IMG/VR virus record: IMGVR_UViG_3300042731_004196
Coordinates: 1 to 37,056 of that record
Length of the DNA: 37,056 bases
Reading direction: 5' to 3' (one strand)
Origin: a virus
The position numbers and the translations under genes were made by a program. Below are positions 3,992 to 21,257 of this stretch, piece after piece. The notes beneath the pieces are model-generated. The model was given only the letters and a program-made list of their open reading frames with translations, did no database searches and was not told the origin of the DNA. The number at the start of each line of letters is the position of its first letter. Within the stretch, counting starts at the first letter, position 1.

Positions 3992-4627
3992 ATGAGCGAA
4001 TACCACAAGATACAAACCGTTTTTAAGCGTGACCCGGCCGCCAAGTACAGGACATTGCTGGAAGGTGACTACTCTTTGCCAGAGTTTGAATACCTCGCCA
4101 ATAACAAGTGGGTGTTCACCGAGAAGGTAAACGGGACCAACATTCGCGTTTACTGCCGCGGCGGAAAAGTGACTTTCGGCGGGAGGACTGACCGCGCGCA
4201 GATACCGGCAACACTGATTGAACGACTGAACGAGCGATTTTTGCCTCAGGTGGAACGGTTCTCCGAAGTGTGCAACGGAGCGGATGTGCGCCTGTACGGC
4301 GAAGGCCACGGCGCGAAGATTCAAAAAGATGGCGGCAATTACAGGCATGACCAGGACTTCGTTTTGTTCGATGTACTGGTTGGCGATGGGTGGTTACAAC
4401 GGCCTGACGTGGAAGACGTTGCAGGCAAGCTGGGGTTAGACGTTGTGCCGGTAGTGGGCGCAGGCACCTTGCTCGAAATGGTGGAGCAGGCAAAGGCGGG
4501 GGTTCAATCCACCTGGGGGGATTTCCAGGCCGAGGGGTATGTGGCGCGGCCTGCTATGGAACTGAGAGCGGGGGGCGGACACCGCCTGATTACTAAAATT
4601 AAATGCCGGGATTTCGTGTATCGCTAA
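3992..4627 (+). CDS. ATP-dependent RNA ligase (RNA_ligase/Rnl2-like nucleotidyltransferase fold), 211 aa
   Basis: Motif I EKVNGTN (KxNG), motif III FVLFDV, motif IV EGYVARP, motif V ITKIKCRDF. Confidence 0.8.
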   Translation: MSEYHKIQTVFKRDPAAKYRTLLEGDYSLPEFEYLANNKWVFTEKVNGTNIRVYCRGGKVTFGGRTDRAQIPATLIERLNERFLPQVERFSEVCNGADVRLYGEGHGAKIQKDGGNYRHDQDFVLFDVLVGDGWLQRPDVEDVAGKLGLDVVPVVGAGTLLEMVEQAKAGVQSTWGDFQAEGYVARPAMELRAGGGHRLITKIKCRDFVYR

Positions 4628-4790: not shown

Positions 4791-5078
4791 GTGACAAAAA
4801 TGACTGAGGCATTAACGAACTTCTCCTGGGCTTTGAACCAAATCAAAGCCGGAAAGAAGATGCAGCGGGCAGGCTGGAACGGCAAAGGCATGTTCGTGTT
4901 CCTCGTTCCAGGCTCGACTTTTCAGGTGAGCCGCGCACCGTTGCTCGGCATCTACCCGGAAGGCACCGAGATCAACTACCACGCCCACATCGACATGCGC
5001 ACCGCAGATGGCCAGGTCGTGCCCTGGCTTGCATCCCAAACGGACATCCTCGCCGATGACTGGCAGGAAGCGGCGTAA
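4791..5078 (+). CDS. DUF2829-family protein (Tad2-like candidate anti-Thoeris sponge), about 92-95 aa
   Basis: FSWALNQIKAGKKMQRAGWNGKGMFVFL ... WLASQTDILADDWQ matches the DUF2829 signature as I recall it. Start is GTG 4791 or ATG 4800. Confidence 0.78.
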   Translation: MTKMTEALTNFSWALNQIKAGKKMQRAGWNGKGMFVFLVPGSTFQVSRAPLLGIYPEGTEINYHAHIDMRTADGQVVPWLASQTDILADDWQEAA

Positions 5079-8885: not shown

Positions 8886-9038
8886 CTATCGAAATGCCCA
8901 CAAAAACCAATTCTTCAGCCCAAGGCGCCCGCCCCATCTTCGCGGCATCACAACCCATTCCCAGAAGTGGTGCGTCCGCGGGTATCGCAGATGCCAGTCT
9001 CTAGTCTCCATCCATTGCAAGACGTTGTATCGCCACAT
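8886..9038 (-). CDS. Hypothetical Trp-rich small protein (50 aa)
   Basis: ATG 9038 is preceded by CTGGAGCGACTTGTT, nearly identical to the initiation region of the 3533 gene. No motif recognised. Confidence 0.3.
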   Translation of the reverse strand: MWRYNVLQWMETRDWHLRYPRTHHFWEWVVMPRRWGGRLGLKNWFLWAFR

Positions 9039-9135
9039 AACAAGTCGCTCCAGCCGACCCGCTACCGCGGGCCTGGCTCATTAGTTGATTTAACGCTCCA
9101 GCGTATCGCGGTAGCGGTCGCCAGTTAGCTTTGCG

Positions 9136-9408
9136 TTATACGCACCCACCACAACAACCAAAACTTAAACCGTCTTCCAGCTTCTCGGCTATTGCTTGGT
9201 ACTCCTCTTCGGTGATTTTGTATTTGTCCAGCACATCGGCAGTCGATGCCTTGCGCTCAAACCGCATATCACCGCAAGCGTAATCTTCGGCGTTCTCTCG
9301 GTCATGGTCGTACTGCTCCCCAAAGTCATCGCTATCAGCAGCAATGCCGTTAATCTTGAACTCAGAGGTAGCGCAAAGCGCCCCGTATATCTCTAATTTC
9401 AATTCCAT
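9136..9408 (-). CDS. Hypothetical acidic, Cys-containing protein (90 aa) in a low-GC patch
   Basis: ATG 9408 is preceded by GGAGATAGAC. GC is about 50% by hand count versus 60-69% nearby. C-terminus is ..SFGCCGGCV. Confidence 0.6.
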   Translation of the reverse strand: MELKLEIYGALCATSEFKINGIAADSDDFGEQYDHDRENAEDYACGDMRFERKASTADVLDKYKITEEEYQAIAEKLEDGLSFGCCGGCV

Positions 9409-9443
9409 GTCTATCTCCAAAAATCGCGCATAATAAGGCAAAT

Positions 9444-9587
9444 TCACTCTGACCGCTCACCCGCCGCGCGCATTCGCGTCGGGCGATTTGTGGCGTTAGG
9501 CCCCTTGGTCCAGAGCCACCCTGCGCCCAGGCCCGCCAGCATCGCAGCGGGGAAACTCGCCAACCGTAATAGGTTGTCTAGGCCCAT
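9444..9587 (-). CDS. Possible small membrane protein (47 aa)
   Basis: ATG 9587 overlaps the stop of the upstream gene. Hydrophobic stretch LLRLASFPAAMLAGLGAGWLW. Confidence 0.3.
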   Translation of the reverse strand: MGLDNLLRLASFPAAMLAGLGAGWLWTKGPNATNRPTRMRAAGERSE

Positions 9588-9823
9588 GCGATTCCCCCTT
9601 TGTCTTCCGCTCTACCTGTAACCTCCTCCCAGACGGCATACGCCATCTTCAGTCTCGCGTCGGAGTAGTCGCCTCGCAGGTGGTACCTGAGGGTGTTGGG
9701 CGATATGTCCAGCATGTGGTTATTCCGCAAGCGGTTAGCCATCAAATTTACTGCAACGTTCAGATTTTTCTGGGTTTCCGCCCAAGCTCGAAATAGGTCT
9801 AGCCATTCATGGTAATCTAGCAT
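9578..9823 (-). CDS. Hypothetical protein (81 aa), possibly DNA-binding
   Basis: First gene of the leftward unit from the 9855-9884 promoter. No firm motif. Confidence 0.6.
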   Translation of the reverse strand: MLDYHEWLDLFRAWAETQKNLNVAVNLMANRLRNNHMLDISPNTLRYHLRGDYSDARLKMAYAVWEEVTGRAEDKGGIAWA

Positions 9824-9854
9824 ATACTTTACCCCGTAGGTTAAGTGTGGGTTA

Positions 9855-9884
9855 ATCTTAACCTGCGTTACGTCTAACTGTCAA
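9855..9884 (-). promoter_or_regulatory. Leftward promoter TTGACA-18 nt-TAAGAT overlapping an AGGTTAAG/CTTAACCT inverted repeat
   Basis: TTGACA is the reverse complement of 9879-9884 and TAAGAT of 9855-9860. Inverted-repeat arms at 9838-9845 and 9857-9864. Confidence 0.5.
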
Positions 9885-9897
9885 CGGGAAATTACAC

Positions 9898-10278
9898 ATG
9901 AATTACGAAGCTCTCGCACAAGCCTTCCGCCTGGCTGCCGACGCACTGGTTGCCGACGAGTCCGCGCCCGTACAAGCGGCGAACCAGCCCGCACAGGAGG
10001 CGGTCGGCACTTCGCAGCCCCCGGGGCTGTACGCAGTCCAGCCTACGCAGGCCGCTCCCACTCCCGCGCAGCCCGCTATCCCCTCCCCGACCGCTCCCGC
10101 GCCGACCGCGCAGGACGTTATTAACCTGTTCCAGCAGGTCGCACCGACGCGCCCCGATGCCAACGACGTGGTCAAGGCTGCGCTCACCGCGCACGGGTTG
10201 ATGAAGATTTCGGACGCAAGCTCGGAGCAGATCGCCAGCATCTTTGCGCAGCTCAAGGGGGCCTTCGGTGCCCAGTAA
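9898..10278 (+). CDS. Hypothetical protein with a Pro/Ala/Gln-rich central linker (126 aa)
   Basis: ATG 9898. First gene of the rightward replication operon. Confidence 0.65.
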   Translation: MNYEALAQAFRLAADALVADESAPVQAANQPAQEAVGTSQPPGLYAVQPTQAAPTPAQPAIPSPTAPAPTAQDVINLFQQVAPTRPDANDVVKAALTAHGLMKISDASSEQIASIFAQLKGAFGAQ

Positions 10279-11596
10279 ACACGCGCGCATCTCACCGAGC
10301 AGCCTGCCTTATCTGGCCCTGTGCCCGGGGCGGCTGCAAGCCATCGAGGCCCTGCCTCCGCAAGACCGTGACAGGGACACGCAGGCATCCATCGACGGCA
10401 CGCGCCGGCATGCCCTGTCCGAGTGGCGCAAGAATCACCCCCTCGACCCCTGGCCGACCGAGGTCGAGGGCTACAAGGTCACCTCCGACGACATCGCCGC
10501 GGTCAGCAAGATCCAGCAGTATTTTCTCACACACGACGCGCACCCCGCCCGGGGCCTCGATGTGCAGATGTTCCTGACCGAGGAACAGGTCGAGATTGGT
10601 CGCTGGTGCGGGCTCGACGAGGGCATCATGTGGGGCACGGCCGACACCATCATGGCCACCCGCGACATGCTGGAGATCGCCGATGACAAGTACGGGCAGG
10701 TCCAAGTCGACCCTGACAACTGGCAGAACAAAGCCTACGCGGTCGGGGCTGGTGTGAAGCTGGTCGACCCGGCAACCGGGGAGTTCTTTCCTCACTGGCG
10801 GCAGGTGCGCAACGTCAAGCTGACCATCGTGCAGCCGACCGCAGAGGACCCCATCAAGTCTGTCGTGTACCCGCTGACCGACCTGGAGACCTGGGCGCGG
10901 CAGATTGGGGACATCGCCCGCAAGGCCCTGGCGCCCGGCGCCAAGCGGGTCCCGGGGGATAAGCAATGCCGCTGGTGCGCCGCCGCTGGGGTGTGCCGCG
11001 AGCGGATGGAATCAACCGCGAAGGAGATGTTCAATATGGTAGAGCAGCCTGACACCCCCGGAATGCCGGAGCCCATCGCGTCCGTCGATTCGATTATTGA
11101 CATCGCAGAGACGCGGATGACCCAGGACCCCGAGTCCATGACCCCCGAGGAGATCGGGCGGATGCTCGATACGGCTATTGCGGTCGAGGGGTGGTTCCAG
11201 GACCTGCGCAAGCAGGCTCAGACCTTCCTGCAGGACGGCACCCCCATCCCCGGGTGGAAGCTCATTGCGGGCAAACGTTCCCGCGCGTGGAAAGAAGGGG
11301 AGGATGAGACGGCGAAAGCCCTGAAATCCCTTGGCGTCAAGATCGACGACCTCTACTCCCGCAAGCTGGTCACCCCGGCCCAGGCCGAGAAGTGCGAGGT
11401 CGGCCGGAAGCACAAGGTCATCCTTGGCGCAGATAAGGCTCGGATGCGGAAGCTCGAAGACCTCTGGTCATGGAAGGAGGGCAAGCCTGCCCTGGCGCCC
11501 GAGAGCGACCCTGCGCCAGCGGTGAACGATGCGCACTCCATGTTTGAGGCCCCCCCGCAGGAGCCCGAGCCTCAACTCACTCCCGATTGGATTTAA
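10268..11596 (+). CDS. PD-(D/E)XK (Cas4/RecB-like) nuclease, DUF2800 family
   Basis: N-terminus HARISPSSLPYLALCPG, C-terminal Cys cluster CRWCAAAGVCRE. Synteny with DUF2815 and PolA. Start is GTG 10268 (AAGGGGG upstream) or TTG 10244. Confidence 0.82.
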   Translation: MPSKHARISPSSLPYLALCPGRLQAIEALPPQDRDRDTQASIDGTRRHALSEWRKNHPLDPWPTEVEGYKVTSDDIAAVSKIQQYFLTHDAHPARGLDVQMFLTEEQVEIGRWCGLDEGIMWGTADTIMATRDMLEIADDKYGQVQVDPDNWQNKAYAVGAGVKLVDPATGEFFPHWRQVRNVKLTIVQPTAEDPIKSVVYPLTDLETWARQIGDIARKALAPGAKRVPGDKQCRWCAAAGVCRERMESTAKEMFNMVEQPDTPGMPEPIASVDSIIDIAETRMTQDPESMTPEEIGRMLDTAIAVEGWFQDLRKQAQTFLQDGTPIPGWKLIAGKRSRAWKEGEDETAKALKSLGVKIDDLYSRKLVTPAQAEKCEVGRKHKVILGADKARMRKLEDLWSWKEGKPALAPESDPAPAVNDAHSMFEAPPQEPEPQLTPDWI

Positions 11597-11600
11597 TACC

Positions 11601-12230
11601 ATGAGCACATCAGTCCGCTTGACTAACATCATCATCTGTTACCCGCATCTGTTCGAGAGGCACACCCCGCCTGGGGCCAACAAAGCCAAGTATTCGGCCG
11701 AGTTCCTGCTCGACCCGGCAGGCAACGCTGCCGCCGTCCAGGAGATCACCGCAGCCTTCCAGGCTGTCGCCACGGCCGCGGGCAAGCAGGGCATGCTGCA
11801 GTATCTGAAGTCCCCGCTGAAGGACGGGAGCCAGCTCAACCAGGAGTCGGTGATGAAGGGCAAGAAGGCCCGCCCGGAGCTGGAAGGCAAGCTGGTCCTT
11901 CGCGCCTCGGACGCCAGCTACGCGCCGGCCGTCGTCAACGCGCAAATGCAGCCGATTCCCGAGAGCAGCAAGAGCCAAATTTTTGGTGGCTGCATCGTCA
12001 ATGCCTTCGTCGATATATATTGGTCTGGCAACCAGGTCAACCCGGGGGTCTATGCTGGCCTGCGCGGGGTCCAGCTCGTCTCCAACGTCAACGTGACGCC
12101 CATCGGCGGCACGGGCGCCCTGAGCCCCGAGGAGATGTTCGAGGCAGTCCCAGGGGCGCCGCCAGCGCAGCAGCCTGCCCAGGAGCAGGGACCTTCACAG
12201 TCTGCCACGGACCAGGTGCCATGGCTGTAG
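11601..12230 (+). CDS. Phage ssDNA-binding protein, DUF2815 family (209 aa)
   Basis: VRLTNIIICYPHLFE...KYSAEFLL... pattern with an acidic/aromatic C-terminal tip DQVPWL. Position between the DUF2800 gene and PolA. Confidence 0.8.
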   Translation: MSTSVRLTNIIICYPHLFERHTPPGANKAKYSAEFLLDPAGNAAAVQEITAAFQAVATAAGKQGMLQYLKSPLKDGSQLNQESVMKGKKARPELEGKLVLRASDASYAPAVVNAQMQPIPESSKSQIFGGCIVNAFVDIYWSGNQVNPGVYAGLRGVQLVSNVNVTPIGGTGALSPEEMFEAVPGAPPAQQPAQEQGPSQSATDQVPWL

Positions 12231-12481
12231 AAAGCAAAATCCCGCCCATCGTGTCAGTGCTGCTCGGGCTGACGGAGGGCTCGTATGCACTGGCAGAGAT
12301 CATGTCTGACAAGGGGGTCAAGCCCTCCCGCGAGCAGATGTCCGAGGTGTTCGCGAAGCAGGCGGCGGTCCTGGAACACCTCACGGTCGTGTTGGCGCGG
12401 CACTTCGGGGTCTCCCAGACAGACCTGCTGAGGATGGCAGAGGGCGAGCCCGATCCTGAGACACAGGAGACCAAGCATTGA
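12221..12481 (+). CDS. Hypothetical protein (86 aa)
   Basis: ATG 12221 overlaps the SSB gene end. Its stop overlaps the polymerase start. Confidence 0.55.
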   Translation: MAVESKIPPIVSVLLGLTEGSYALAEIMSDKGVKPSREQMSEVFAKQAAVLEHLTVVLARHFGVSQTDLLRMAEGEPDPETQETKH

Positions 12482-13269
12482 CTCGCGTGCATTTCGATCT
12501 CGAAACCGCGTGCGACCTCGACCTCAAGCAGGTCGGGCTGACCAACTACGTCAACCACGAGTCGTTCCGCGTCCTGATGACCGCGTGGGCCTTCGACGAT
12601 GAACCCGTGCAGTGGGGCGAGGGGCTGGTGCGGTTCTGGGGCAAGCGCTGGCCCTCGACCTGGCACGCCTTCAACGTGCCGTTCGAGGCAGCTTGTCTAC
12701 GCCGCTACGGCGTGGGGGTCGCACTCCAGCTATGGCGCTGCACCCTGGCCCATTCCTACGCCCGCGGCTTCTCCGGCGGGCTGGACAAGGTCGGGGAGCA
12801 GGTCGGCATCGCGCAGGATGCGCAAAAGCTCAAGGAAGGAGGCCGGCTAATCAACAAGTTCTGCAAGCCCCGCCGGCCCAGCAAGTCCAATCCCGACCCG
12901 TATTGGACTGAGAAGACCGCCCCCCTGGACTGGGCGCGGTTCTGTGAGTACAACCGGCAAGACGTAGTGGCCGAGCGAGCCATCTGGTACGAGCTTAACA
13001 GGTGGCCCTGGACCCCTGAGGAGCAGCGCCTGTGGCAGCTTGACAGGGGTATCAATACTGAGGGGGTGCCCGTGGACCTTCCCATGGTGCGGAACGCCCT
13101 GAGCGTCGCTGAAAGGCTGTCAGCGGGCCTCGCGCAGGACTGCCTGCGGGTCACCGGCGGCATTGGTCCTGGACAGGTCCAGGCCCTGCTGGCGTGGTGC
13201 CGGGAGCGAGGTTACGAGGGGGAAGACCTGCGGGCTGGAACAATAGAGGAGGCGTTGAAAGGAGGTTGA
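12478..13269 (+). CDS. Family-A DNA polymerase, N-terminal 3'-5' exonuclease part (split gene, part 1)
   Basis: ExoI-like HFDLETA, plus YNRQDVVAERAIW (ExoIII-like). It ends at a TGA that overlaps the TTGACA of the insert promoter. Confidence 0.85.
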   Translation: MTRVHFDLETACDLDLKQVGLTNYVNHESFRVLMTAWAFDDEPVQWGEGLVRFWGKRWPSTWHAFNVPFEAACLRRYGVGVALQLWRCTLAHSYARGFSGGLDKVGEQVGIAQDAQKLKEGGRLINKFCKPRRPSKSNPDPYWTEKTAPLDWARFCEYNRQDVVAERAIWYELNRWPWTPEEQRLWQLDRGINTEGVPVDLPMVRNALSVAERLSAGLAQDCLRVTGGIGPGQVQALLAWCRERGYEGEDLRAGTIEEALKGG

Positions 13270-13294
13270 CATTAGGTTAATCCCAGGTTAAAGT
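13266..13294 (+). promoter_or_regulatory. Sigma70-type promoter TTGACA-17 nt-TAAAGT at the left edge of the polymerase insert
   Basis: -35 at 13266-13271 and -10 at 13289-13294. The spacer carries two AGGTTAA direct repeats (13274-13280, 13285-13291). Confidence 0.55.
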
Positions 13295-13430
13295 GACCTT
13301 ACACTGCAACCAGCAAATAGAAACGAAACAACCCCCAGCCCGGCGGGCGGCCCAAGGCCGATGGCCGGGACAGGTCAAGCGGGTAAGTGACCTGGTTCGA
13401 AATAACACCCGCAGCCAGGGCTCCGGAGCA

Positions 13431-13694
13431 CCCGGCTCCATTCGGCCCTCCTTGCCCGGAGGCCCTGGCATTTCAACCGACAGGAGATAGAGAAATGAAG
13501 CACATCATCATCATCGCCCCCCTCGCCCTCGCCCTGGTGGGTTGCGAGACGGCCCCCGAGCCCCCGGCTCCATTCGGCCCTCCTTGCCCGGAGGCCCTGG
13601 CATTTCAACCGACAGGAGATAGAGAAATGAAGCACATCATCATCGCCCCCCTCACCCTCGCCCTCGCCCTCGCCCTGGTGGGTTGCGAGACGAC
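13431..13694 (+). repeat. 132-bp tandem duplication (2 copies) covering the leader, SD, ATG and signal peptide of the lipoprotein gene
   Basis: The sequence from 13431 repeats from 13563. Copies differ by one ATC codon and extra GCCCTC units. Confidence 0.9.
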
Positions 13695-13857
13695 CCCCGA
13701 GCAGAGCCGGCGCACGGGCGCAGCTGCCCTGATGCTTGGCTCCCAGATGCAGCAGCAACAGCAGTCCTTCCAGCACCCACAGCCCGCGCCCCGGTATTAT
13801 CCGCGCAACACGCAGTGCTACCGGGTCGGCCACATGATCCAATGCCAGAGCTACTAG
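13627..13857 (+). CDS. Small lipoprotein (76 aa precursor; lipobox LVGC); in-frame alternative start at 13495 from the duplicated copy
   Basis: MKHIIIAPLTLALALALVG|C is a signal peptide plus lipobox. SD GGAGATAGAG. Gln-rich mature part with two C-terminal Cys. Confidence 0.7.
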   Translation: MKHIIIAPLTLALALALVGCETTPEQSRRTGAAALMLGSQMQQQQQSFQHPQPAPRYYPRNTQCYRVGHMIQCQSY

Positions 13858-13865
13858 GAGATAGA

Positions 13866-14069
13866 GTGAAAAAGTTCACCGCGCTCATCGACGGATACCC
13901 TGTCCGCTCCTACCTCGCGAGGTCACCAGGCGATGTCTATGCCTACGCCAGAAAATCTTTCGGGCCAGAAGGGCTCACTGTCCAGCAGGGAACAGGTTCT
14001 ACGCGCGATTGCCTGCGGGTGGAATACCCGGCAGAGGCCGGAGGGCCGCCTCGGTTGGCCAACACGTAA
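13866..14069 (+). CDS. Hypothetical protein (67 aa)
   Basis: GTG 13866 is preceded by GGAGATAGA, the same SD as the lipoprotein gene. It overlaps the 13933 ORF in another frame. Confidence 0.4.
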   Translation: MKKFTALIDGYPVRSYLARSPGDVYAYARKSFGPEGLTVQQGTGSTRDCLRVEYPAEAGGPPRLANT

Positions 14070-14145
14070 AGCCAATATCGCGCTCAGTGGGCTGCGCAAG
14101 CGGCGAAAGGCTCAGTGTCATGACGGTTGCTGGATCCTGCGGTGA
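13933..14145 (+). CDS. Hypothetical protein (70 aa), winged-helix-like C-terminal half
   Basis: REQVLRAIACG...GWPTRKANIALSGLRKR...GCWIL resembles a wHTH. Its TGA (14143-14145) overlaps an in-frame GTG 14142 of the polymerase part (GTGA). Confidence 0.35.
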   Translation: MSMPTPENLSGQKGSLSSREQVLRAIACGWNTRQRPEGRLGWPTRKANIALSGLRKRRKAQCHDGCWILR

Positions 14146-15260
14146 CCCCCGAGTGCCGGAAAGCCCTGCAGCTGCGCCTCGCCTATGCGCAATCTGCCAC
14201 CAAGAAGTTCCACGCCATCGACCGTCTGCAGCACAACGGGCGGGTCTACGAGACCCTGCAAGCCTGGGGCGCGAGCCGCACGGGCCGATGGGGCGGACGG
14301 GGGCTCCAGGTCCAGAACCTCAAGCGGCCCACCCGCGGGGTCGGGGACCCCGATCGTGCCGCCCAGACGCTCGCAGAAGACCCTGACCTGTTCGCCCGCC
14401 TCTACACACTGGAAGACCTCGGGAGCCTCGTCAGGAGTGCCATACGGGCTCCGGACGACTATAGCCTCGTGGTCTCCGACCTGTCCTCGATCGAGCCCCG
14501 CGTGCTGGGGTGGCTGACCGGCTGCGTCTGGATCAACGAGGTATTCGCCCGCGGCAAGGACACCTACAAGGCCTTCGCGGAAATGTGGCTGCGGGCGCCT
14601 TACGACGACGTGGACAAGCCAACCCGCGACCTGTGCAAGGGCCCATTCCTCGGGTTTGGCTACGGCATTGGGGCTGGCGGGCTGAAGACCTATGCGGAAG
14701 GCATGGGCGTGGAGATGTCCGAGGACCAGTGCGAGAGTGCCATCAAAACCGTGCGCAAGGTCTGCTACGAAGTGCCCCGGTTTTGGATGCAGATCGAAGG
14801 CTGCTTCCGCCTGACCGCACAGACGGGGGTGCCCACAGGCGACGGGCTAGGACTCCCTATACAGATGGAAGGGCGGTTCCTGACCATCCGCCTGCCGAGC
14901 GGACGCAAGCTGTACTACGACGCCCCGGAGGATGACCCCGAGGAAGGGCTGTCCTACATGGGGCAGAACCAGTACACCAACAAGTGGGAGCGGATTCGGA
15001 CGTATGGCGCGCGGTTGACGGAAAACCTCTGCCAGGCAATCGCTCGGGACGTCCTGGTCGAGGGGTTGTATCGCTATGCGGGCATCGGGGGCACTCTTAT
15101 CACGCATATCCACGATGAGGCGGTTGCGGTGGAAATCGAATGGGCTGCAGAAGACCGGCTCGCAGAGATGAACAGGTGCCTGTCGGAGCCCGTCCCCTGG
15201 GCTCCCGGCCTCCTGCTCGGAAGCTCGGGATACATCTCCAAGCGGTATCGGAAAGACTAG
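14127..15260 (+). CDS. Family-A DNA polymerase, polymerase domain (split gene, part 2)
   Basis: RTGRWGGRGLQVQNLKRP, motif A VVSDLSSIEPRVLGW, motif B KGPFLGFGYGIG, motif C HIHDEAVAV. Start is TTG 14127 or GTG 14142. Confidence 0.88.
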   Translation: MLDPAVTPECRKALQLRLAYAQSATKKFHAIDRLQHNGRVYETLQAWGASRTGRWGGRGLQVQNLKRPTRGVGDPDRAAQTLAEDPDLFARLYTLEDLGSLVRSAIRAPDDYSLVVSDLSSIEPRVLGWLTGCVWINEVFARGKDTYKAFAEMWLRAPYDDVDKPTRDLCKGPFLGFGYGIGAGGLKTYAEGMGVEMSEDQCESAIKTVRKVCYEVPRFWMQIEGCFRLTAQTGVPTGDGLGLPIQMEGRFLTIRLPSGRKLYYDAPEDDPEEGLSYMGQNQYTNKWERIRTYGARLTENLCQAIARDVLVEGLYRYAGIGGTLITHIHDEAVAVEIEWAAEDRLAEMNRCLSEPVPWAPGLLLGSSGYISKRYRKD

Positions 15261-15427
15261 TCCGTCAGGGCCTTAAGCCGCCTCGCGGACTCCAGCTCGA
15301 CTAGGTGCTCCAGCTGCGCGGAGACCGCGCGCCGGTCATCCTCGGCCATCTGGCGCAATTTCTCCCGGGTGCGGTGCCCCACCTTGAGGACCATCTGGAC
15401 CTTGGCAGGCTTTTCTAAGTTGCTCAT
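15257..15427 (-). CDS. Ribbon-helix-helix protein (56 aa) antisense to the replication operon
   Basis: KVQMVLKVGHRTREKLRQMAEDDRRAVSAQLEHLV fits an RHH pattern. Its stop and the polymerase stop overlap in CTAG (15257-15260). Confidence 0.6.
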   Translation of the reverse strand: MSNLEKPAKVQMVLKVGHRTREKLRQMAEDDRRAVSAQLEHLVELESARRLKALTD

Positions 15428-15456
15428 AGTGGCGTTCTCGGTTAACGTTGGGTGAA

Positions 15457-15552
15457 CACAAGATAACAGAAGAGACGGGAGAATCCAACGTGGCACAAGA
15501 TAACGGTATGGGCTTGCCGGCCAGCCACAGTTTTATTGAGATTGAGATTGAC
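15457..15552. promoter_or_regulatory. Direct repeats CACAAGATAAC x2 (15457-15467, 15494-15504) and ATTGAG x3 (15535-15552) in the RHH / VRR-NUC intergenic region
   Basis: Direct reading. Located between the divergent RHH gene and the VRR-NUC gene. Confidence 0.4.
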
Positions 15553-15566
15553 GGGGAAAACAACTG

Positions 15567-15851
15567 ATGCTCGAAAAAGACATTGAGGCGAAAGCCTGCC
15601 AGGCGGCCAAAAACCTCGGCTGGCTGGTCTACAAGTTCGCGAGCCCCGCGCGGCGCTCGGTGCCAGACCGCATGTTCATCAAACGCGGGCGGGTAGTGTT
15701 CATCGAGTTCAAACGCCCCGGGGGCAAGCTGACCAGAGGGCAGGAGCGGGAGGGCGACAGGATACGCCAGGCGGGCCTCCCGGTTTACGTCTGCGATTCC
15801 GCAGCCTCCGCGCAGCAAATCCTAGCCTTTTGGGCGCCCTCAGATGACTAA
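15567..15851 (+). CDS. VRR-NUC domain nuclease (94 aa)
   Basis: PDRMFI...VVFIEFKRPGGKLTRGQ is a PD-(D/E)xK signature typical of VRR-NUC. Synteny with the SNF2 helicase. Confidence 0.82.
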   Translation: MLEKDIEAKACQAAKNLGWLVYKFASPARRSVPDRMFIKRGRVVFIEFKRPGGKLTRGQEREGDRIRQAGLPVYVCDSAASAQQILAFWAPSDD

Positions 15852-15890
15852 GAAAAGGCGTGCGCTATACAGGCATTGGACCTTTAATGG

Positions 15891-17315
15891 ATGAAACGCT
15901 CAGACCTCTACCCTTACCAAGAGAAAGCCATCCAGCACATACTGGACCGCCCGAACGCGATGCTGTGGGAGGATGTCGGGCTCGGGAAGACTGCTCAAGC
16001 ACTCACCGCAATCTGCGAGCTGCAGGACCGCTTGCTGATCCCCGCAGCCCTGGTCATCGCGCCCAAGCGCATCATCCAGGCAGTCTGGCGGCAGGAGGCG
16101 GTGAAGTGGGAGCACACTCGCCACTTGCGCTTCAGCCTTGTGCACGGGTCAGCCGCTCGCCGTCTTGCTGCCTTGCGCCGGCGGGCGGACATCTACCTGG
16201 TCAACTACGAGAACCTGCCCTGGCTGGCGACCCAGATCAAGCACCTCTGGCTGCGCAAGGGGCACTATCCGCCCTTCCAGATGGTCATCTACGATGAGGT
16301 AACCAAGCTGAAGAACAGCCAGTCCAAGCGGGCGAAGGCGTGGGGGAAGATCCTCCCCTATTTCTCCCGCCGGGTCGGGCTCACGGGCGAGCCTGCGGCC
16401 AACGGTTACAAGGACCTGTTCGGGCAGTTCTTCGCCGTCGACGCCGGCCAGCGGTTGGGCACCAGTCTCACCGCATACCGGGAGGCGTTTCTCAAGCCTC
16501 TGGGGTACAACCAGTTCGGGTGGGCAGTGACCAAGGCAGGGCAGGAGCAAATCCACCGTCGCATCTCAGATATCACGTTAGAGCTGTCGGCCAAGGACTA
16601 CCTCGACCTACCCCCCGTCGTGAACAATCTCGTCTGGGTCGAACTGCCCTTGAAAGCCAGGGCGATCTACGACAAGCTGGAGCGGGAGTTCTTCGCAGAG
16701 CTTGACTCGGGCGCGGAGCTTGAGGCGGTCAACGAGGCCAGCAAGCTCAACAAGCTGCTGCAGATATGCGGGGGTGCGGCGTACCTCGCGGACGGGCACC
16801 ACTGGGAGGAGATCCACCGCGAGAAGATCCACGCCCTCGTAGACCTCGTAGATGAGGCAGGCGGGCGCCCGCAGCTCCTGGGGTACGCCTACGTCCACGA
16901 AGCAAAGCGGATCGCTCAAGCGTTCCCCGAGGACCCCCAGAGGCACGAGGGCGCGACCTTCCTGTCCAGCCAGCTCGGGGAGCGGGGGCTGTCAGACGTG
17001 CTACGCCGGTGGGAGCACGACGAGATCCCTCTCCTGTGCGGCCACCCGGCTTCAATGGGGCACGGCCTTAACCTCCAGGGAGCGTCCGCCTGCAGCGTCA
17101 TCTGGTTCAGCTTGCCGTGGTCGTTGGAGCTTTACAAGCAGATGAACGGGCGCCTCTTCGGCGGGCACCGGCGGCAGGGGACCTCGGTCGTCCACCACAT
17201 CCTTGCAAGGGGCACGGTGGACGAGGTGGTCTGGGCCGCGCTCCTGACCAATAGCGCCACCCAGGCCGGATTGAAAAAAGCGGTCAGCGAGTACCGCAGG
17301 AGGAAAAACCTTTAA
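15891..17315 (+). CDS. SNF2/RAD54-family (SF2) helicase, 474 aa
   Basis: YPYQEKAI, motif I DVGLGKT, motif II YDEVTKLKN, C-terminal helicase motifs GHGLNLQ. Confidence 0.9.
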   Translation: MKRSDLYPYQEKAIQHILDRPNAMLWEDVGLGKTAQALTAICELQDRLLIPAALVIAPKRIIQAVWRQEAVKWEHTRHLRFSLVHGSAARRLAALRRRADIYLVNYENLPWLATQIKHLWLRKGHYPPFQMVIYDEVTKLKNSQSKRAKAWGKILPYFSRRVGLTGEPAANGYKDLFGQFFAVDAGQRLGTSLTAYREAFLKPLGYNQFGWAVTKAGQEQIHRRISDITLELSAKDYLDLPPVVNNLVWVELPLKARAIYDKLEREFFAELDSGAELEAVNEASKLNKLLQICGGAAYLADGHHWEEIHREKIHALVDLVDEAGGRPQLLGYAYVHEAKRIAQAFPEDPQRHEGATFLSSQLGERGLSDVLRRWEHDEIPLLCGHPASMGHGLNLQGASACSVIWFSLPWSLELYKQMNGRLFGGHRRQGTSVVHHILARGTVDEVVWAALLTNSATQAGLKKAVSEYRRRKNL

Positions 17316-19363
17316 TCGGGGCGACCCTCTCCTGTCCCCATAGCGCCATGCGCGCCCAAAGTCGTCAGCAGCATTGACGTTTGCTGAATCGCGGACTGCA
17401 GGGCGTTCTTGGCCAGCGTGGATGCTTTCTCTCCTTTGGTCATGCCCTCGCGCACAAGCCTCCTGTTGCTTATGTCAAGCCCCTCGGTCAGCCATTTCAT
17501 CCCGAGCGAGGTGTCAAAAAGCTTGCTGAGTCCGCGCATCTGCGCCATGCGCCCGAGATTCGCCAACGGTCGCGCGGCAATCGCTGCGGCCACAAGCTGC
17601 CCATAGTCGTTCATGTGCCTAGCGTTCAGATCCATGACTCTAGCGAGCCGGAACATCTCAGAAGTGCGGCTTCTCCCGAACATGGCGTTCAACGTGTCCG
17701 TGTCGTACTTGCGCAAGGTCGAAAGAAACCCTCGACCAGACGACAGGAAATCGGTTACATCGTCCAACCCGCGCGCCGACTCTCTCATCAGCTTGCCCAT
17801 AAACGCGCGTTGAATCTTGGGCTTATACTCCGGCGGAATTTGACTCATGAACTTGGCGACCCGGGTCCCCGAGCGAGGGGCTACAAGGCGGTCGACTATC
17901 GCCTCGGGCTCCAAGCTCCCCACCTTCCCGGGCTCCCGCAAGATACGGTCGAAAAGCTGATCTTGCCGCCTGGTGATCTGCTTGCGGTAGATTCGATTCA
18001 GCGCCCCCGCATAAGCTCCATGCTCCGGGATGTCTTGCATGGCGTCAGATGTTGCCCGATAAAGACGGTCAATCGTTTTTTTCGCGATACCTGGGTTCAT
18101 CTCAGGCCTCGTTTGCATTGTGCGCAAACGATCCCGTAGCGCCCAGATCTGGTTCAAAGACATTTTGTCCTGGAGACCCATGAAATCTTGCAGGTGCGCA
18201 TATTCCGAGGCGCCCATCGTCATAGGCTCCTCTTGCCCTCCCTTAACGGTCGTGGGGAGACTTGTTCGGACTTCCTCAGCTATCTGCCGAATTTTATCAG
18301 TGGGGACAACTGGGACATCGGCTCCTCCGACTCGCGAGACTAAGGGGCCGTAGAGCTTACGTCCCCATTCCTTGAAACCTTCGTTGCTCGCTTGCAGTGC
18401 TTCTCGAACCGCGGCTCCCGCTTCAGCCTCGGATAGATCATCCGGCAAGTCCTTGACCAGATCCGCGACAGCTCGCTCCAGAGCCCGGATGTTCTCTCTC
18501 TTGGTTTTCGTATGCGGAAAAATGCGAGAAGCAATCCCAGACATACGGGAGGCGACAGGCACATCCGGGAGCACCTGTCCGAAAGCGGGGCGCACGCCCA
18601 TTCTCGTTGCCTCGTGCAGGACATCTGCTTGCGCGGGGGTTATATCCGCGGCGAAAGGCGCCAGGAGCCCTCCCCCCAACCTGCCGACCTGCCTGCGGGC
18701 CATCTCCCCCGGGAGGGCGTTCATCGCCCCCTCGTAGGCGAGGTCTAGTCCAATATCCCTTGGTGATTGCAAGTTGCGCCCGGTGGTAGACTCCCAAGCC
18801 TCCTGTATTCCTTTTGCCCCCATTGCCCCTATCGCCGCGCCGGCGGCAGAGCCAAGAGGACCAAGCGAAAGGCCTAGAGAGGCGCCCAATACTGCGCCTG
18901 TCGTCGGGGCCGCGGCTTGCGCGGCGAACTCCTCCATGTCCGCCAGAGAAAGCCCCGCCTCATCGATGGCTACGGGGCGGTTGCCATATTGCGCCGGGTC
19001 TATCCCAAGAGCGGATAGACCCTCGGGGCGAAGAATGTATTTCCCTCTCTTATCTTGGTACCAGTTCCCTTTTCCGGCTCGCTGGTCCAGAAGCGCGGAC
19101 ACCTCTTGGGGGTTGTCCCTTATCGCCATTTCCCGACGCAGATTGTAATCCTTGACGCCCCGGAGCATGTCCGGCCCTTGCGGCCAACCTCCGAACCCGC
19201 GGTTAAGCAGCTCCCTTCCTTGGGCAGTAATCTGGGGTAAAGCGTCTTTTGCCAAGGAGAGCGCCGACCCGATTGTTTCTGCGGAGATAAGAGGGACAGG
19301 CTGCTCGGGGTACTTCCTCCAAGGACCTTCTGCCCCCTGGTATTTCTCCCACGGCTTAGGCAT
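17312..19363 (-). CDS. Large virion (internal/ejection-type) protein, 683 aa
   Basis: Last gene of the late operon, downstream of the SLT-domain protein. No catalytic motif recognised. Confidence 0.6.
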   Translation of the reverse strand: MPKPWEKYQGAEGPWRKYPEQPVPLISAETIGSALSLAKDALPQITAQGRELLNRGFGGWPQGPDMLRGVKDYNLRREMAIRDNPQEVSALLDQRAGKGNWYQDKRGKYILRPEGLSALGIDPAQYGNRPVAIDEAGLSLADMEEFAAQAAAPTTGAVLGASLGLSLGPLGSAAGAAIGAMGAKGIQEAWESTTGRNLQSPRDIGLDLAYEGAMNALPGEMARRQVGRLGGGLLAPFAADITPAQADVLHEATRMGVRPAFGQVLPDVPVASRMSGIASRIFPHTKTKRENIRALERAVADLVKDLPDDLSEAEAGAAVREALQASNEGFKEWGRKLYGPLVSRVGGADVPVVPTDKIRQIAEEVRTSLPTTVKGGQEEPMTMGASEYAHLQDFMGLQDKMSLNQIWALRDRLRTMQTRPEMNPGIAKKTIDRLYRATSDAMQDIPEHGAYAGALNRIYRKQITRRQDQLFDRILREPGKVGSLEPEAIVDRLVAPRSGTRVAKFMSQIPPEYKPKIQRAFMGKLMRESARGLDDVTDFLSSGRGFLSTLRKYDTDTLNAMFGRSRTSEMFRLARVMDLNARHMNDYGQLVAAAIAARPLANLGRMAQMRGLSKLFDTSLGMKWLTEGLDISNRRLVREGMTKGEKASTLAKNALQSAIQQTSMLLTTLGAHGAMGTGEGRPD

Positions 19364-20711: not shown

Positions 20712-21257
20712 TCAGCCTCCGCGATATCCAAACATGCTCGGCGGCTGCGGACCTCGTTGCGCGGACATATAGTTACGGTTGAACCTCGCCCCCGGGTCCT
20801 GGAACTGATCCATCCAGAAGGGCCACAGTGGGTTCACGGACTGGTCGAAATACTCGCGCGACACGTTCCCTTCACTGCCGATGTCATAGAGCCCGTACAG
20901 GCTCGGAAGCGACAATTGCTGCTGTTGCGCTTGCTGCTGTTGCGCTTGCTGCTGCTGCTCCTGCGCCCACGGGGCATAGTCGGCGGTTGAAGGCATCCTG
21001 CCCTGCTGCACCTGGTAGACCAGGTTCTTTAGAGGCAACCCTCTCGGGTCCGTGTCGGCGTGATAACCCCACCAGGGCATGTCAAACCACCCGGTCGCCC
21101 ATAGCGGTTTGCGATCCGGCGTAAAGGTCGTGACGGTCGGTGTCGGCCCCTGCCCAGGCCATTGCGTCTGCAGCGCAACCGGCTCCGGAGGCGGCTCGTA
21201 AGGATCGGCCGCAGGCGCGTCGTTGCTGTCGCTACCACCAAAAAATGCGTCAAACAT
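20712..21257 (-). CDS. Hypothetical virion protein with a QQQQA repeat (181 aa)
   Basis: Late-operon position. EQQQQAQQQQAQQQQ is encoded by a 15-bp tandem repeat. Confidence 0.65.
   Translation of the reverse strand: MFDAFFGGSDSNDAPAADPYEPPPEPVALQTQWPGQGPTPTVTTFTPDRKPLWATGWFDMPWWGYHADTDPRGLPLKNLVYQVQQGRMPSTADYAPWAQEQQQQAQQQQAQQQQLSLPSLYGLYDIGSEGNVSREYFDQSVNPLWPFWMDQFQDPGARFNRNYMSAQRGPQPPSMFGYRGG

What the first reader, a model, noticed from the sequence alone, without database searches (positions are those of the whole stretch)
13431..13857. Moron inside the polymerase gene: a lipoprotein gene whose leader, SD, ATG and signal peptide are tandemly duplicated (132 bp x2)
13431-13562 is repeated at 13563-13694. 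The copies differ by one ATC codon and extra GCCCTC (Ala-Leu) units, so the duplication has since diverged by slippage. 132 is divisible by 3. Translation from ATG 13495 therefore reads through copy 1 into copy 2, giving a 120-aa product with two lipoboxes (LVGC). ATG 13627 gives a classic 76-aa prolipoprotein (MKHIIIAPLTLALALALVG|C) with a Gln-rich, two-Cys mature peptide. Small phage lipoproteins expressed from their own promoter are typically superinfection-exclusion or receptor-blocking factors (T5 Llp and Cor-like), or o-spanins. Here the gene is far from any lysis-like gene.
Basis: partly seen in the sequence, partly recalled or inferred. Interest (0 to 1): 0.7.

Follow-up and report, generated by a model that had tools for sequence, protein, structure and literature searches.

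The report
Orphan phage lipoprotein gene, duplicated start
A small accessory cassette sits between the two halves of a naturally split phage DNA polymerase gene: it has its own promoter, a known but unstudied structured RNA, and a lipoprotein gene with no relatives whose start region was recently duplicated in tandem; this is an ordinary kind of phage add-on gene with a few unusual details.

Summary
Bases 13430-13561 (132 nt) recur at 13562-13702 (141 nt): 127 matches, 2 mismatches, two slippage indels, and GAGC microhomology at the breakpoints. Both lengths are multiples of 3, so ATG 13495 gives a 120-aa product with two lipoboxes and ATG 13627 gives a 76-aa prolipoprotein.

The ORF looks coding: GC3 is 0.86-0.95, codon use matches the phage's genes, and it has a strong SD and the only credible lipoprotein signal in the window. 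It has no homologue in 5.8 billion protein clusters or 1.84 billion representatives.

- An Rfam Proteo-phage-1 RNA (RF03044, 61 bits) lies at 13333-13416, between a consensus-like sigma-70 promoter (13266-13294) and the duplication. A strong third hairpin follows it and is cut by the duplication's left breakpoint.
- The polymerase is split at this site across the whole clade. Relatives carry nothing there, or unrelated small ORFs. The insert therefore occupies a cargo hot spot and did not break the gene.
- The 11-mer AGGAGATAGAG occurs a third time, at the start of the next small ORF.

Function (superinfection exclusion is the most likely) is inferred only. This is a new member of a known kind; interest is moderate.

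The parts
12478..13269 (+). N-terminal (3'-5' exonuclease) half of a split family-A DNA polymerase. Its TGA stop (13267-13269) lies inside the -35 hexamer of the cassette promoter.
   Evidence: PHROG phrog_17 DNA polymerase, E 4e-28. Aligns to residues 1 to about 265 of unsplit homologues P0006 and P0019. Nearly all homologues are stand-alone proteins of 246-290 aa.
13266..13294 (+). Sigma-70-like promoter, TTGACA-17 nt-TAAAGT (10 of 12 matches). Predicted transcription start is near 13301.
   Evidence: It is one of only five sites with at least 10 of 12 matches in the 37-kb window. By my reading of the ORF map, all five lie between genes at likely operon starts.
13333..13416 (+). Proteo-phage-1 RNA motif (Rfam RF03044): two hairpins separated by one base, with conserved single-stranded flanks.
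   Evidence: cmscan gives 61.3 bits (gathering score 42), E 7e-9 over the whole window, with the full model matched. All five pairs of stem 2 differ from the consensus and still pair.
13414..13469 (+). Strong third hairpin immediately 3' of the Rfam motif, followed by CAUUUCAACC. The left breakpoint of the duplication (13429|13430) falls inside it, so copy 2 carries only its apical part and 3' arm.
   Evidence: MFE -36.4 kcal/mol, z -3.24, 2 of 200 shuffles fold as well. The equivalent region of copy 2 has no significant structure (z 0.39).
13430..13561 (+). Tandem duplication, copy 1 (132 nt): distal leader, SD, ATG 13495, signal peptide MKHIIIIAPLALALVG|C (Cys codon 13543-13545) and five further codons.
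13562..13702 (+). Tandem duplication, copy 2 (141 nt): the same module with ATG 13627 and signal peptide MKHIIIAPLTLALALALVG|C (Cys codon 13684-13686). It has one ATC fewer and 12 nt more in the GCCCTC run.
13495..13857 (+). Long reading frame (120 aa) that starts in copy 1 and has two lipoboxes. Residues 18-44 are the duplicated leader read in frame.
   Evidence: Translations. The copy-1 part has a codon score of only 0.05 bits per codon, as expected for ex-non-coding sequence.
13627..13857 (+). 76-aa prolipoprotein. The 57-aa mature peptide has a Gln/Pro-rich linker and a C-terminal Cys-x8-Cys beta-hairpin.
   Evidence: GC3 is 0.95 (signal peptide) and 0.86 (mature part). Codon log-likelihood is 0.23-0.28 bits per codon in frame, against -0.4 to -0.65 in the other two same-strand frames; real genes give 0.30 +/- 0.16. 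It meets a PROSITE-style lipoprotein rule and is the only credible lipobox ORF in the window. AF2 gives pLDDT 77-93 for residues 52-76, with strands 62-67 and 70-75. No homologues.
13856..13866 (+). Third copy of the 11-mer AGGAGATAGAG (the others are at 13482 and 13614). It overlaps the TAG stop of the lipoprotein ORF and the GTG start of the next ORF. The lipoprotein ORF is therefore flanked by an 11-bp direct repeat.
   Evidence: There are exactly three occurrences in the window.
13866..14069 (+). Candidate 67-aa ORF (GTG start, shared SD). Its reality is uncertain.
   Evidence: Codon score 0.04, GC3 0.67. No family hit.
13933..14145 (+). Alternative 70-aa ORF (the JGI gene call), overlapping the 67-aa ORF in another frame. 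Its TGA stop overlaps GTG 14142 of the polymerase C-half (GTGA), which may indicate translational coupling.
   Evidence: Codon score -0.05. No family hit.
14127..15260 (+). C-terminal (polymerase domain) half of the split family-A DNA polymerase. The start is TTG 14127 or GTG 14142.
   Evidence: Pfam DNA_pol_A, E 3e-11. Aligns to the C-terminal ~370 residues of unsplit homologues. Many of the closest homologues are stand-alone proteins of ~370 aa.

Best explanation
The region 13266-14126 is an accessory ('moron-like') expression cassette. It sits in the gap between the two ORFs of a family-A DNA polymerase that is split in this whole phage clade.

Proposed workings:
- Host RNA polymerase starts at a consensus-like sigma-70 promoter whose -35 hexamer overlaps the stop codon of the polymerase N-half.
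- The transcript begins with a leader of about 190 nt. The leader contains the Proteo-phage-1 RNA (RF03044) and a strong third hairpin.
- It then encodes a 76-aa prolipoprotein.

Inferred steps, from the standard lipoprotein pathway:
- The protein is exported by Sec, lipidated by Lgt at Cys20 and cleaved by LspA.
- This leaves a 57-aa lipid-anchored peptide with a flexible Gln/Pro-rich tether and a C-terminal beta-hairpin that probably carries a disulfide.
- Expressed early from a host-type promoter, it most plausibly acts at the cell envelope to block entry of the same or related phages, working like T5 Llp or Cor. I give this function about 0.3 probability. It is the weakest part of the explanation.

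The 5' end of the gene underwent a microhomology-mediated (GAGC) in-frame tandem duplication of about 132 bp. The slippage-prone (ATC)n and (GCCCTC)n runs and at least one base have changed since. The result is two identical SD-ATG modules. The downstream start makes the canonical prolipoprotein. The upstream start makes a 120-aa form whose first lipobox would anchor a product 47 residues longer, which contains a second signal-peptide-like segment. The duplication is most likely a recent change that is nearly neutral or raises dosage, not a designed feature.
For: - Duplication and reading frames.
- Coding signal: GC3 0.86-0.95; in-frame codon score 0.23-0.28 against 0.30 +/- 0.16 for real genes and -0.52 +/- 0.20 off frame. 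The leader 13301-13494 shows no coding signal in any frame.
- Lipoprotein signal: rule-based scans find only these two starts with a hydrophobic core and an SD. The N-termini of many lipoprotein HMMs match weakly.
- Promoter: 10 of 12 matches, one of five such sites in 37 kb, all five between genes by my reading of the ORF map.
- RNA: RF03044 at 61.3 bits against a gathering score of 42, with compensatory stem 2. Hairpin 3 has z -3.24.
- Cargo hot spot: the N and C halves together cover the unsplit homologues. Stand-alone halves are the rule in the N-half search and common among the closest C-half homologues. L128, L129 and the Thiohalocapsa phage have overlapping halves and no insert. L004, L127 and L003 carry unrelated small ORFs.
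- The insert is flanked by an 11-bp direct repeat.
- Structure: AF2 gives a confident C-terminal hairpin that places Cys64 and Cys73 on paired strands.
- Independent assembly: a second assembly has identical sequence, with a contig break at the expected branch point.
Against: - No homologue exists, so conservation, dN/dS and function cannot be tested.
- No terminator was found downstream of the cassette.
- Its GC content and codon use match the rest of the genome. By the classic criteria it is therefore not a clear-cut moron.
- No read-level evidence for the duplication was available.
- Nothing links the protein to any receptor. Scores for Cor, EexN and TrbK are below threshold and confined to the signal peptide.
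- The role of RF03044 is unknown. Elsewhere it sits in late or lysis operon leaders, a different context.
Confidence: 0.6

Rival explanations
1. The lipoprotein is the phage's outer-membrane spanin subunit (o-spanin), needed for the last step of lysis, and is encoded away from its partner.
For: - It is the only credible lipoprotein ORF in the window.
- It is small and carries free Cys residues.
- A 136-aa ORF at 28019-28429 (- strand) has an N-terminal membrane segment followed by a charged stretch that looks helical by eye, like an i-spanin. It has no embedded or adjacent lipoprotein ORF.
Against: - It is not embedded in, overlapping or adjacent to any i-spanin-like gene. It lies about 14 kb away on the other strand, inside the replication module and behind a host-type promoter.
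- It is absent from relatives with the same genome plan, including the Thiohalocapsa phage, where no spanin is annotated.
- Only 5 of 57 mature residues are Pro.
- The i-spanin candidate has no PHROG hit.
Confidence: 0.12
2. The tandem duplication is not present in single genomes. It is an assembly product of two co-existing variants of a single-copy 5' region, or of chimeric reads.
For: - The two copies differ only at slippage-prone runs and one or two bases, as strain variants would.
- The lipoprotein ORF is on record on only two JGI contigs, and the one place shown is the source contig. The sequence was not found in the metagenome or viral contig collections.
- The Logan contig breaks in the repeat, which a mixture would also cause.
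Against: - The junction sequence CCCGAGC|CCCCGGCTCC exists in neither single-copy form, so k-mers spanning it must come from reads (inference from how de Bruijn assemblers work).
- The copy-specific base G at 13553 lies 8 nt from the junction and is linked to it.
- GAGC microhomology at the breakpoints is the usual signature of a genuine duplication.
Confidence: 0.1
3. The ORF is not translated. The region downstream of RF03044 is a non-coding 3' extension of that RNA, as in Pseudomonas prophages, where about 150-200 nt after the motif are conserved and non-coding. The duplication would then be a duplication of RNA structure.
For: - In lambdoid relatives the motif is followed by a conserved non-coding extension.
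- The protein has no homologues.
- ORFs of this length are common by chance at 63% GC, and the opposite strand has a 155-aa ORF.
Against: - GC3 is 0.86-0.95 and the codon score is typical of real genes only in this frame, while the true leader shows none.
- The ORF has a perfect SD spacing and a complete lipoprotein signal peptide.
- Beyond the 84-nt motif there is no sequence similarity to the lambdoid extension.
- The copy-2 region has no significant structure (z 0.39).
Confidence: 0.06
4. The main functional element is the promoter plus the Proteo-phage-1 RNA. It would act in cis (for example as a put-like antiterminator or transcript stabiliser) to drive the downstream polymerase C-half, nuclease and helicase genes now that the halves are uncoupled. 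The lipoprotein would be a passenger.
For: - The promoter lies 39 nt upstream of the motif.
- The core has two hairpins one base apart, close to the promoter, as described for HK022 putRNA: about 70 nt, two stem-loops, just downstream of PL (PMC9378689).
- In prophages the motif heads long late operons and is followed by a terminator-like hairpin.
- In relatives without cargo the halves overlap and are presumably coupled. Here the C-half has a weak ribosome-binding site.
Against: - No terminator-like site on the + strand lies between the motif and position 16342.
- Relatives with other cargo (L003, L004, L127) have no such RNA.
- No sequence similarity to put was tested. The resemblance is in architecture only.
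- This reading does not exclude the best explanation.
Confidence: 0.12

Closest known systems
T5 Llp and the Cor lipoproteins of phi80/N15/HK022-type phages (superinfection exclusion by receptor blocking)
   Same: A small phage-encoded prolipoprotein of about 76 aa, apparently expressed from a host-type promoter outside the lysis genes, with extra Cys residues in the mature part. The comparison with Llp and Cor rests on my own knowledge of those proteins.
   Different: - No sequence similarity: Cor model NF047972 scores 17 bits against a cutoff of 31, and the match covers only the signal peptide.
- No structural match.
- It is not next to a receptor-binding protein gene.
- Neither the receptor nor the host is known.
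Morons of lambdoid phages (for example lambda bor): a promoter-gene-terminator unit present in one genome and absent from relatives
   Same: It has its own consensus-like promoter. It is absent at the same position in relatives. It lies between two conserved genes and encodes a lipoprotein, as bor does (the bor comparison is from my own knowledge).
   Different: - No terminator was found.
- Composition and codon use do not differ from the host phage.
- The leader carries a structured RNA.
- The phage shows no integrase, so expression from a prophage is not established.
Rfam RF03044, Proteo-phage-1 RNA
   Same: The full-length match is above the gathering score, and both hairpins are kept through compensatory changes.
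   Different: - Elsewhere the motif follows a terminator or tRNA in the late-operon leader of Pseudomonas-type lambdoid prophages. It precedes holin genes or cargo placed before them, and has a conserved extension of about 150-200 nt.
- Here it lies 39 nt after a sigma-70-like promoter in a replication module of a podovirus-like phage, before a lipoprotein gene, with an unrelated third hairpin.
Rz1-type o-spanins
   Same: A small lipoprotein with Cys residues, and the only lipoprotein ORF in the genome.
   Different: It is not embedded in or adjacent to an i-spanin gene and is not in a lysis cassette. It sits behind an early-type promoter.
Split family-A DNA polymerases of phages (two adjacent 'DNA polymerase' CDSs, as annotated in Thiohalocapsa phage LS06-2018-MD04)
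   Same: Same module order (DUF2800 nuclease, Enc34-like SSB, polymerase N-half, polymerase C-half, VRR-NUC, SNF2 helicase) and the same split point.
   Different: In that phage, and in L128 and L129, the halves overlap by 16-28 nt. Here they are 857 bp apart.

Membership tests
Bacterial prolipoprotein (type II signal peptide, PROSITE PS51257-style rule) | K or R in the first 7 residues, an uncharged hydrophobic core, a lipobox [LVI..][ASTVI..][GAS]C, and Cys at position 15-35 | tested here: met
   Both starts pass: Cys17 for ATG 13495 and Cys20 for ATG 13627. Seven of 1,537 ORFs pass the bare rule, but only these two also have an SD and a hydrophobic core.
Bacterial prolipoprotein (type II signal peptide, PROSITE PS51257-style rule) | Lipidation by Lgt and cleavage by LspA in vivo | not testable with these tools
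   Needs globomycin sensitivity or lipid labelling.
Cor exclusion lipoprotein (NCBIfam NF047972) | Whole-protein score at or above the curated cutoff (31 bits) | tested here: not met
   17 bits, E 0.0045. The match covers only residues 45-87 of the 120-aa form, i.e. the signal peptide and start of the mature part.
EexN / TrbK entry-exclusion lipoproteins (NF033894, TIGR04359) | Score at or above the curated cutoff | tested here: not met
   20.3 versus 33 bits, and 13.3 versus 23 bits. Only the signal peptide matches.
o-spanin (Rz1-like) | Lipoprotein signal on a short periplasmic peptide | tested here: met
o-spanin (Rz1-like) | Gene embedded in, overlapping or directly following an i-spanin gene, within the lysis gene set | tested here: not met
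   The neighbours are the polymerase halves. The only i-spanin-like ORF (28019-28429, - strand) is about 14 kb away and has no lipobox ORF in or near it.
Rfam RF03044 Proteo-phage-1 | Covariance-model score at or above the gathering score (42 bits) over the full model | tested here: met
   61.3 bits, model positions 1-82 of 82.
Rfam RF03044 Proteo-phage-1 | Usual genomic context: late or lysis operon leader of Pseudomonas-type prophages | tested here: not met
   The typical context is seen in phiAH14a and in about 100 IMG/VR loci. 45 of the 51 genome-contig hits are Pseudomonas, and at least two of the other six are chance matches inside coding sequence. In the window the motif lies in a replication module.
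Moron (own promoter and terminator, absent from relatives, deviant composition) | Own promoter | tested here: met
   TTGACA-17-TAAAGT at 13266-13294. This is a consensus match only.
Moron (own promoter and terminator, absent from relatives, deviant composition) | Absent at the same position in related genomes | tested here: met
   No insert in L128, L129 or the Thiohalocapsa phage. L003, L004 and L127 carry unrelated ORFs.
Moron (own promoter and terminator, absent from relatives, deviant composition) | Own terminator | tested here: not met
   No + strand terminator-like site between 13857 and 16342.
Moron (own promoter and terminator, absent from relatives, deviant composition) | Base composition unlike the surrounding genome | tested here: not met
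   GC is 0.63, against 0.64-0.65 in the flanks. Codon use resembles the phage's genes.
Group I or II intron, or intein, in a polymerase gene | Intron RNA fold, or an uninterrupted intein reading frame, between the halves | tested here: not met
   No intron family appears in the Rfam scans at gathering or E <= 1 thresholds. The N-half ends at a stop codon, and in relatives the halves are overlapping ORFs with their own starts.

The most novel reading that the evidence does not exclude
Proteo-phage-1 is a promoter-proximal, cis-acting RNA: a put-like processive antiterminator or a transcript-protecting element. Phages would place it at the head of operons that carry cargo and late genes. Under this reading the window holds a portable 'promoter-RNA-cargo' module that landed in the polymerase split site. 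The module would both express an exclusion lipoprotein and restore expression of the now uncoupled polymerase C-half and helicase. This instance has a consensus promoter 39 nt upstream and no preceding terminator, which would make it the cleanest system for testing the function of this orphan RNA.
Probability: 0.1. Interest if true: 0.7.

Novelty: new member of a known kind. Interest (0 to 1): 0.4.

Why it matters
- It adds an orphan envelope lipoprotein to the set of phage accessory genes. The lipoprotein is a candidate superinfection-exclusion factor.
- It shows that the junction of a clade-wide split DNA polymerase serves as a landing site for unrelated small genes.
- It provides an unusually simple instance of the unstudied Proteo-phage-1 RNA, with a consensus host promoter directly upstream, that could be used to find out what this RNA does.
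- The in-frame duplication of a complete translation-start and signal-peptide module is a neat snapshot of how such genes change. It is probably not a mechanism in itself.

Tried and rejected
- Homologues of the lipoprotein. The word-indexed search of 5.8 billion clusters, the exhaustive HMMER search of 1.84 billion representatives with the mature part and tblastn against 50,697 phage records found only the protein itself or nothing.
- Family libraries. Pfam gave only sub-threshold DUF6491 and DUF6234 hits. PHROGs, PADLOC and PDB sequences gave nothing. NCBIfam gave only sub-threshold signal-peptide matches.
- Structure. The single-sequence AF2 model has pLDDT 64.6. Foldseek against PDB and BFVD found nothing with E <= 0.001.
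- Intron or intein reading of the split: rejected.
- Close DNA relatives. Megablast of 9000-18000 against phages found nothing. An exact pattern from the lipoprotein gene had 0 hits in metagenome contigs and viral contigs, so copy number could not be compared among contigs.
- Upstream Logan contig. Looking up the polymerase N-half by exact sequence to recover it failed twice.
- The search for related loci with the C-half in viral contigs found nothing.
- Shared origin with the Pseudomonas prophage late leader. There is no similarity outside the 84-nt motif.
- Literature on Proteo-phage-1 or RF03044. No paper in the library mentions it. The source paper's main text does not mention it and its supplements are not held.
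- Which of the two small ORFs after the lipoprotein gene is real. Codon and GC3 tests were inconclusive.
Full report
**1. The observation**

The window sequence shows a head-to-tail duplication.
- With an affine-gap alignment, copy 1 is 13430-13561 (132 nt) and copy 2 is 13562-13702 (141 nt).
- There are 127 matches and 2 mismatches, one of which is the boundary base.
- There are two indels: one ATC unit, and 12 nt in the GCCCTC run.
- After the boundary base, the first 73 nt of each copy (distal leader, SD, ATG and first codons) are identical.
- The three boundaries read ..CCGGAGC|ACCC, ..CCCGAGC|CCCC and ..CCCGAGC|AGAG. The duplication therefore arose at a 4-nt microhomology (GAGC), the usual mark of illegitimate recombination or slippage.
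- Both lengths are multiples of three. ATG 13495 therefore reads through into copy 2 (120 aa, two LVGC lipoboxes), and ATG 13627 gives a 76-aa prolipoprotein.

A Logan assembly of SRR11712615 (L002) has identical sequence from inside copy 2 onward.
- Its contig begins at exactly the 31-mer that ends on the copy-specific base (GAGACGA versus GAGACGG).
- A k=31 graph would branch there if both versions are in the reads. The value k=31 for Logan is from my own knowledge.
- This fits the duplication but would also fit a mixture of variants. I could not reach the reads, and the sequence is absent from the searchable contig collections.

**2. Is the ORF a gene?**

- *Composition:* GC3 is 0.95 in the signal peptide and 0.86 in the mature part, against GC2 of 0.37-0.49.
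- *Codon use:* a codon log-likelihood trained on 17 confident genes of the window gives 0.23-0.28 bits per codon in frame and -0.4 to -0.65 in the other two same-strand frames. Real genes give 0.30 +/- 0.16 in frame and -0.52 +/- 0.20 off frame. The leader 13301-13494 has no coding signal in any frame.
- *Start signals:* each ATG is preceded by AGGAG at the right distance.
- *Signal peptide:* both N-termini satisfy a PROSITE-style lipoprotein rule. They are the only ORFs in the window that combine this with a hydrophobic core and an SD.
- *Structure:* a single-sequence AF2 model is poor overall (pLDDT 64.6). It is confident (77-93) for residues 52-76, a beta-hairpin that puts Cys64 and Cys73 on paired strands.
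- *Homologues:* none in 5.8 billion clusters, 1.84 billion representatives, phage genomes, Pfam, PHROGs, NCBIfam or PADLOC above threshold, or among solved or predicted structures.

The ORF is therefore very probably a real gene, and it has no known relatives.

**3. What surrounds it**

The window is a podovirus-like phage genome with terminase, portal, scaffold, major head protein and tail fibres on the - strand. The + strand carries a replication module of DUF2800 nuclease, Enc34-like SSB, polymerase, VRR-NUC and SNF2 helicase.

*The polymerase is split.*
- ORF 12478-13269 is the polymerase N-half (phrog_17, E 4e-28).
- ORF 14127-15260 is the polymerase domain (Pfam DNA_pol_A).
- Together they cover unsplit homologues of 632-644 aa with nothing missing.

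*The split is not caused by the insert.*
- The closest homologues of the C-half are mostly stand-alone proteins of about 370 aa. Those of the N-half are almost all 246-290 aa.
- In L128, L129 and the deposited Thiohalocapsa phage LS06-2018-MD04 (52% identity, same gene order), the halves are overlapping ORFs in different frames, with 16-28 nt of overlap and no insert.
- Other relatives hold unrelated small ORFs at the same place: a 65-aa zinc-ribbon-like protein (L004), an 85-aa protein (L127), and three ORFs of 59, 78 and 101 aa (L003). None resembles another or the window's ORFs.
- The junction of the split polymerase is thus a hot spot for cargo. The 857-bp insert of the window is one such cargo.

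**4. Anatomy of the insert**

- *Promoter.* A sigma-70-like promoter, TTGACA-17-TAAAGT, lies at 13266-13294. Its -35 hexamer contains the TGA stop of the N-half. Only five sites in the 37-kb window reach 10 of 12 matches. By my reading of the ORF map, all five lie between genes at likely operon starts.
- *RNA motif.* Rfam RF03044, the Proteo-phage-1 RNA, matches 13333-13416 at 61.3 bits (gathering score 42) over the full model. All five pairs of the second stem are changed relative to the consensus and still pair.
- *Third hairpin.* A strong hairpin lies at 13414-13469 (-36.4 kcal/mol, z -3.24) and is followed by CAUUUCAACC. The left breakpoint of the duplication lies inside it, so copy 2 has only its 3' part and no comparable fold (z 0.39).
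- *The two SD-ATG-signal-peptide modules and the mature coding part* follow, up to TAG 13855-13857.
- *A third 11-mer.* AGGAGATAGAG occurs only three times in the window, at 13482, 13614 and 13856. The third copy overlaps the stop of the lipoprotein ORF and the GTG start of a 67-aa ORF. The lipoprotein ORF is therefore flanked by an 11-bp direct repeat. I infer that it was inserted or rearranged by recombination at a ribosome-binding-site sequence.
- *Two rival small ORFs.* The 67-aa ORF (13866-14069) competes with a 70-aa ORF in another frame (13933-14145, the JGI call). The TGA of the 70-aa ORF overlaps GTG 14142 of the polymerase C-half. Codon and GC3 tests do not decide between them.
- *No terminator.* No terminator-like site follows the cassette on the + strand.

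**5. What the RNA motif tells us**

- *Spread:* a pattern drawn from the motif found at least 119 IMG/VR loci and 51 genome contigs. 45 of the 51 are Pseudomonas, and at least two of the other six are chance matches inside coding sequence.
- *Usual position:* the motif follows a terminator or a tRNA 3' end. It precedes a conserved non-coding extension of about 150-200 nt and then holin genes, or cargo placed before them.
- *In Pseudomonas phage phiAH14a:* it scores 82 bits and lies after NinB, NinG and an unknown gene in the Q position. A promoter-like site and a terminator come before it, and a holin (phrog_2359) and later the terminase follow.
- *What it normally is:* part of a late or lysis operon leader. 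I found no study of it.
- *The window's copy:* it shares nothing with those loci beyond the 84-nt motif. It is absent from the relatives of this phage. It is part of the cargo, in an atypical context directly behind a host-type promoter.
- *Resemblance to HK022 putRNA:* its two hairpins one base apart, close to a promoter, recall the description of putRNA (about 70 nt, two stem-loops, just downstream of PL; PMC9378689). This is a resemblance of architecture only.

**6. Mechanism**

*Shown by the sequence and the tools:*
- a real duplication in the assembly;
- a coding-like ORF with a full lipoprotein signal;
- a consensus-like promoter;
- a bona fide RF03044 match;
- a position in a clade-wide cargo site.

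*Inferred:*
- Host RNA polymerase transcribes the cassette early.
- The 76-aa product is exported, lipidated at Cys20 and cleaved, leaving a 57-aa lipid-anchored peptide with a disordered Gln/Pro-rich tether and a disulfide-stapled hairpin.
- It acts at the envelope. Exclusion of incoming phage, in the manner of T5 Llp or Cor, is the best guess (about 0.3), because of its size, its lipid anchor, its host-type promoter and its distance from the lysis genes.
- The upstream start would give a lipoprotein 47 residues longer, containing the translated ex-leader and a second signal-like segment. Whether this form is made, and whether the inner lipobox is used, is unknown.
- The duplication is most simply a recent event that is nearly neutral or raises dosage. 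The in-frame length has a one-in-three chance of arising by accident.

**7. Rivals**

- *o-spanin:* this is the only lipoprotein ORF in the genome, and an i-spanin-like ORF exists at 28019-28429 on the - strand. However, the gene is 14 kb away on the other strand and absent from relatives.
- *Assembly artefact:* the junction sequence is novel and is linked to a copy-specific base, which argues against it. Only reads can settle the matter.
- *Non-coding extension of the RNA:* contradicted by the frame-specific coding signal.
- *The promoter and RNA mainly serve the downstream replication genes:* this is compatible with the main reading.

**8. Novelty and verdict**

- Small phage lipoproteins with their own promoters are a known kind. 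This one has no relatives.
- The unusual points are its place in a polymerase split site, its RF03044 leader, and the duplicated start module.
- Split family-A polymerases are already present in deposited phage genomes, and split phage DNA polymerases are mentioned in the literature.
- I rate it a new member of a known kind, of moderate interest. The main practical value is as a simple test bed for the unstudied Proteo-phage-1 RNA.

Noticed in passing
window 1-91 and 37026-37056: A 15-bp tandem repeat (GGGATGCGGACCAGA) has about 6 copies at the start and about 2 at the end of the window. Joined, they would make an array of about 8 copies. The window is probably a circularly closed or terminally redundant genome, and the array may be iterons or a packaging or origin element. 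The source contig is 37,496 bp.
   Followed up: no
window 12478-13269 and 14127-15260; L128 4001-5859; L129 4001-5622; L130 2746-4604: The family-A DNA polymerase is split between the exonuclease and polymerase domains in a whole clade. In relatives without cargo, the halves overlap by 16-28 nt in different frames, each with its own start codon. This could reflect a two-subunit enzyme, translational coupling or programmed frameshifting; none of these was tested.
   Followed up: partly
L126 5070-5147 (Pseudomonas phage phiAH14a, NC_074659 26320-26397): RF03044 and its conserved extension lie where the record annotates a minus-strand hypothetical protein (gp55, 26084-26614). That CDS is probably a mis-annotation over a non-coding late-leader RNA.
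   Followed up: partly
L007-L125 (IMG/VR loci with RF03044): Between the RNA motif and the holin, many prophages carry unrelated extra ORFs. This resembles the Q-to-S cargo site of Stx phages (comparison from my own knowledge). In several loci a tRNA gene ends immediately before the motif.
   Followed up: partly
window 4791-5078, 3992-4627, 1136-1804: The early region encodes a Tad2-like (Thoeris anti-defence) protein (E 2.5e-26), an RNA ligase (E 8e-20) and a C-5 cytosine methylase-like protein.
   Followed up: no
window 2339-2368 (-) and 2473-2500 (+); ORFs 2012-2233 (-) and 2720-2923 (+): A divergent pair of near-perfect sigma-70 promoters (12 of 12 and 11 of 12 matches) is flanked by a small minus-strand ORF that ends at a strong terminator (1988-2007) and by a plus-strand Xre-type HTH gene. 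This looks like a repressor/Cro-type switch, although no integrase was found.
   Followed up: no
window 28019-28429 (-): A 136-aa ORF (from the internal Met) has an N-terminal membrane segment and a charged, helical-looking remainder, like an i-spanin. It has no lipoprotein ORF inside or beside it and no PHROG hit.
   Followed up: partly
window 14142-14145: The TGA stop of the 70-aa ORF overlaps a GTG start of the polymerase C-half (GTGA). The annotated TTG start at 14127 has only a weak ribosome-binding site.
   Followed up: partly
window 32287-32385, 20916-20958, 36714-36749: Further short tandem repeats are present: 18/21-bp CTGC-rich units where the portal ORF lies, a 15-bp unit (2.9 copies), and ATAGGAAAT in four copies near the end of the window.
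   Followed up: no
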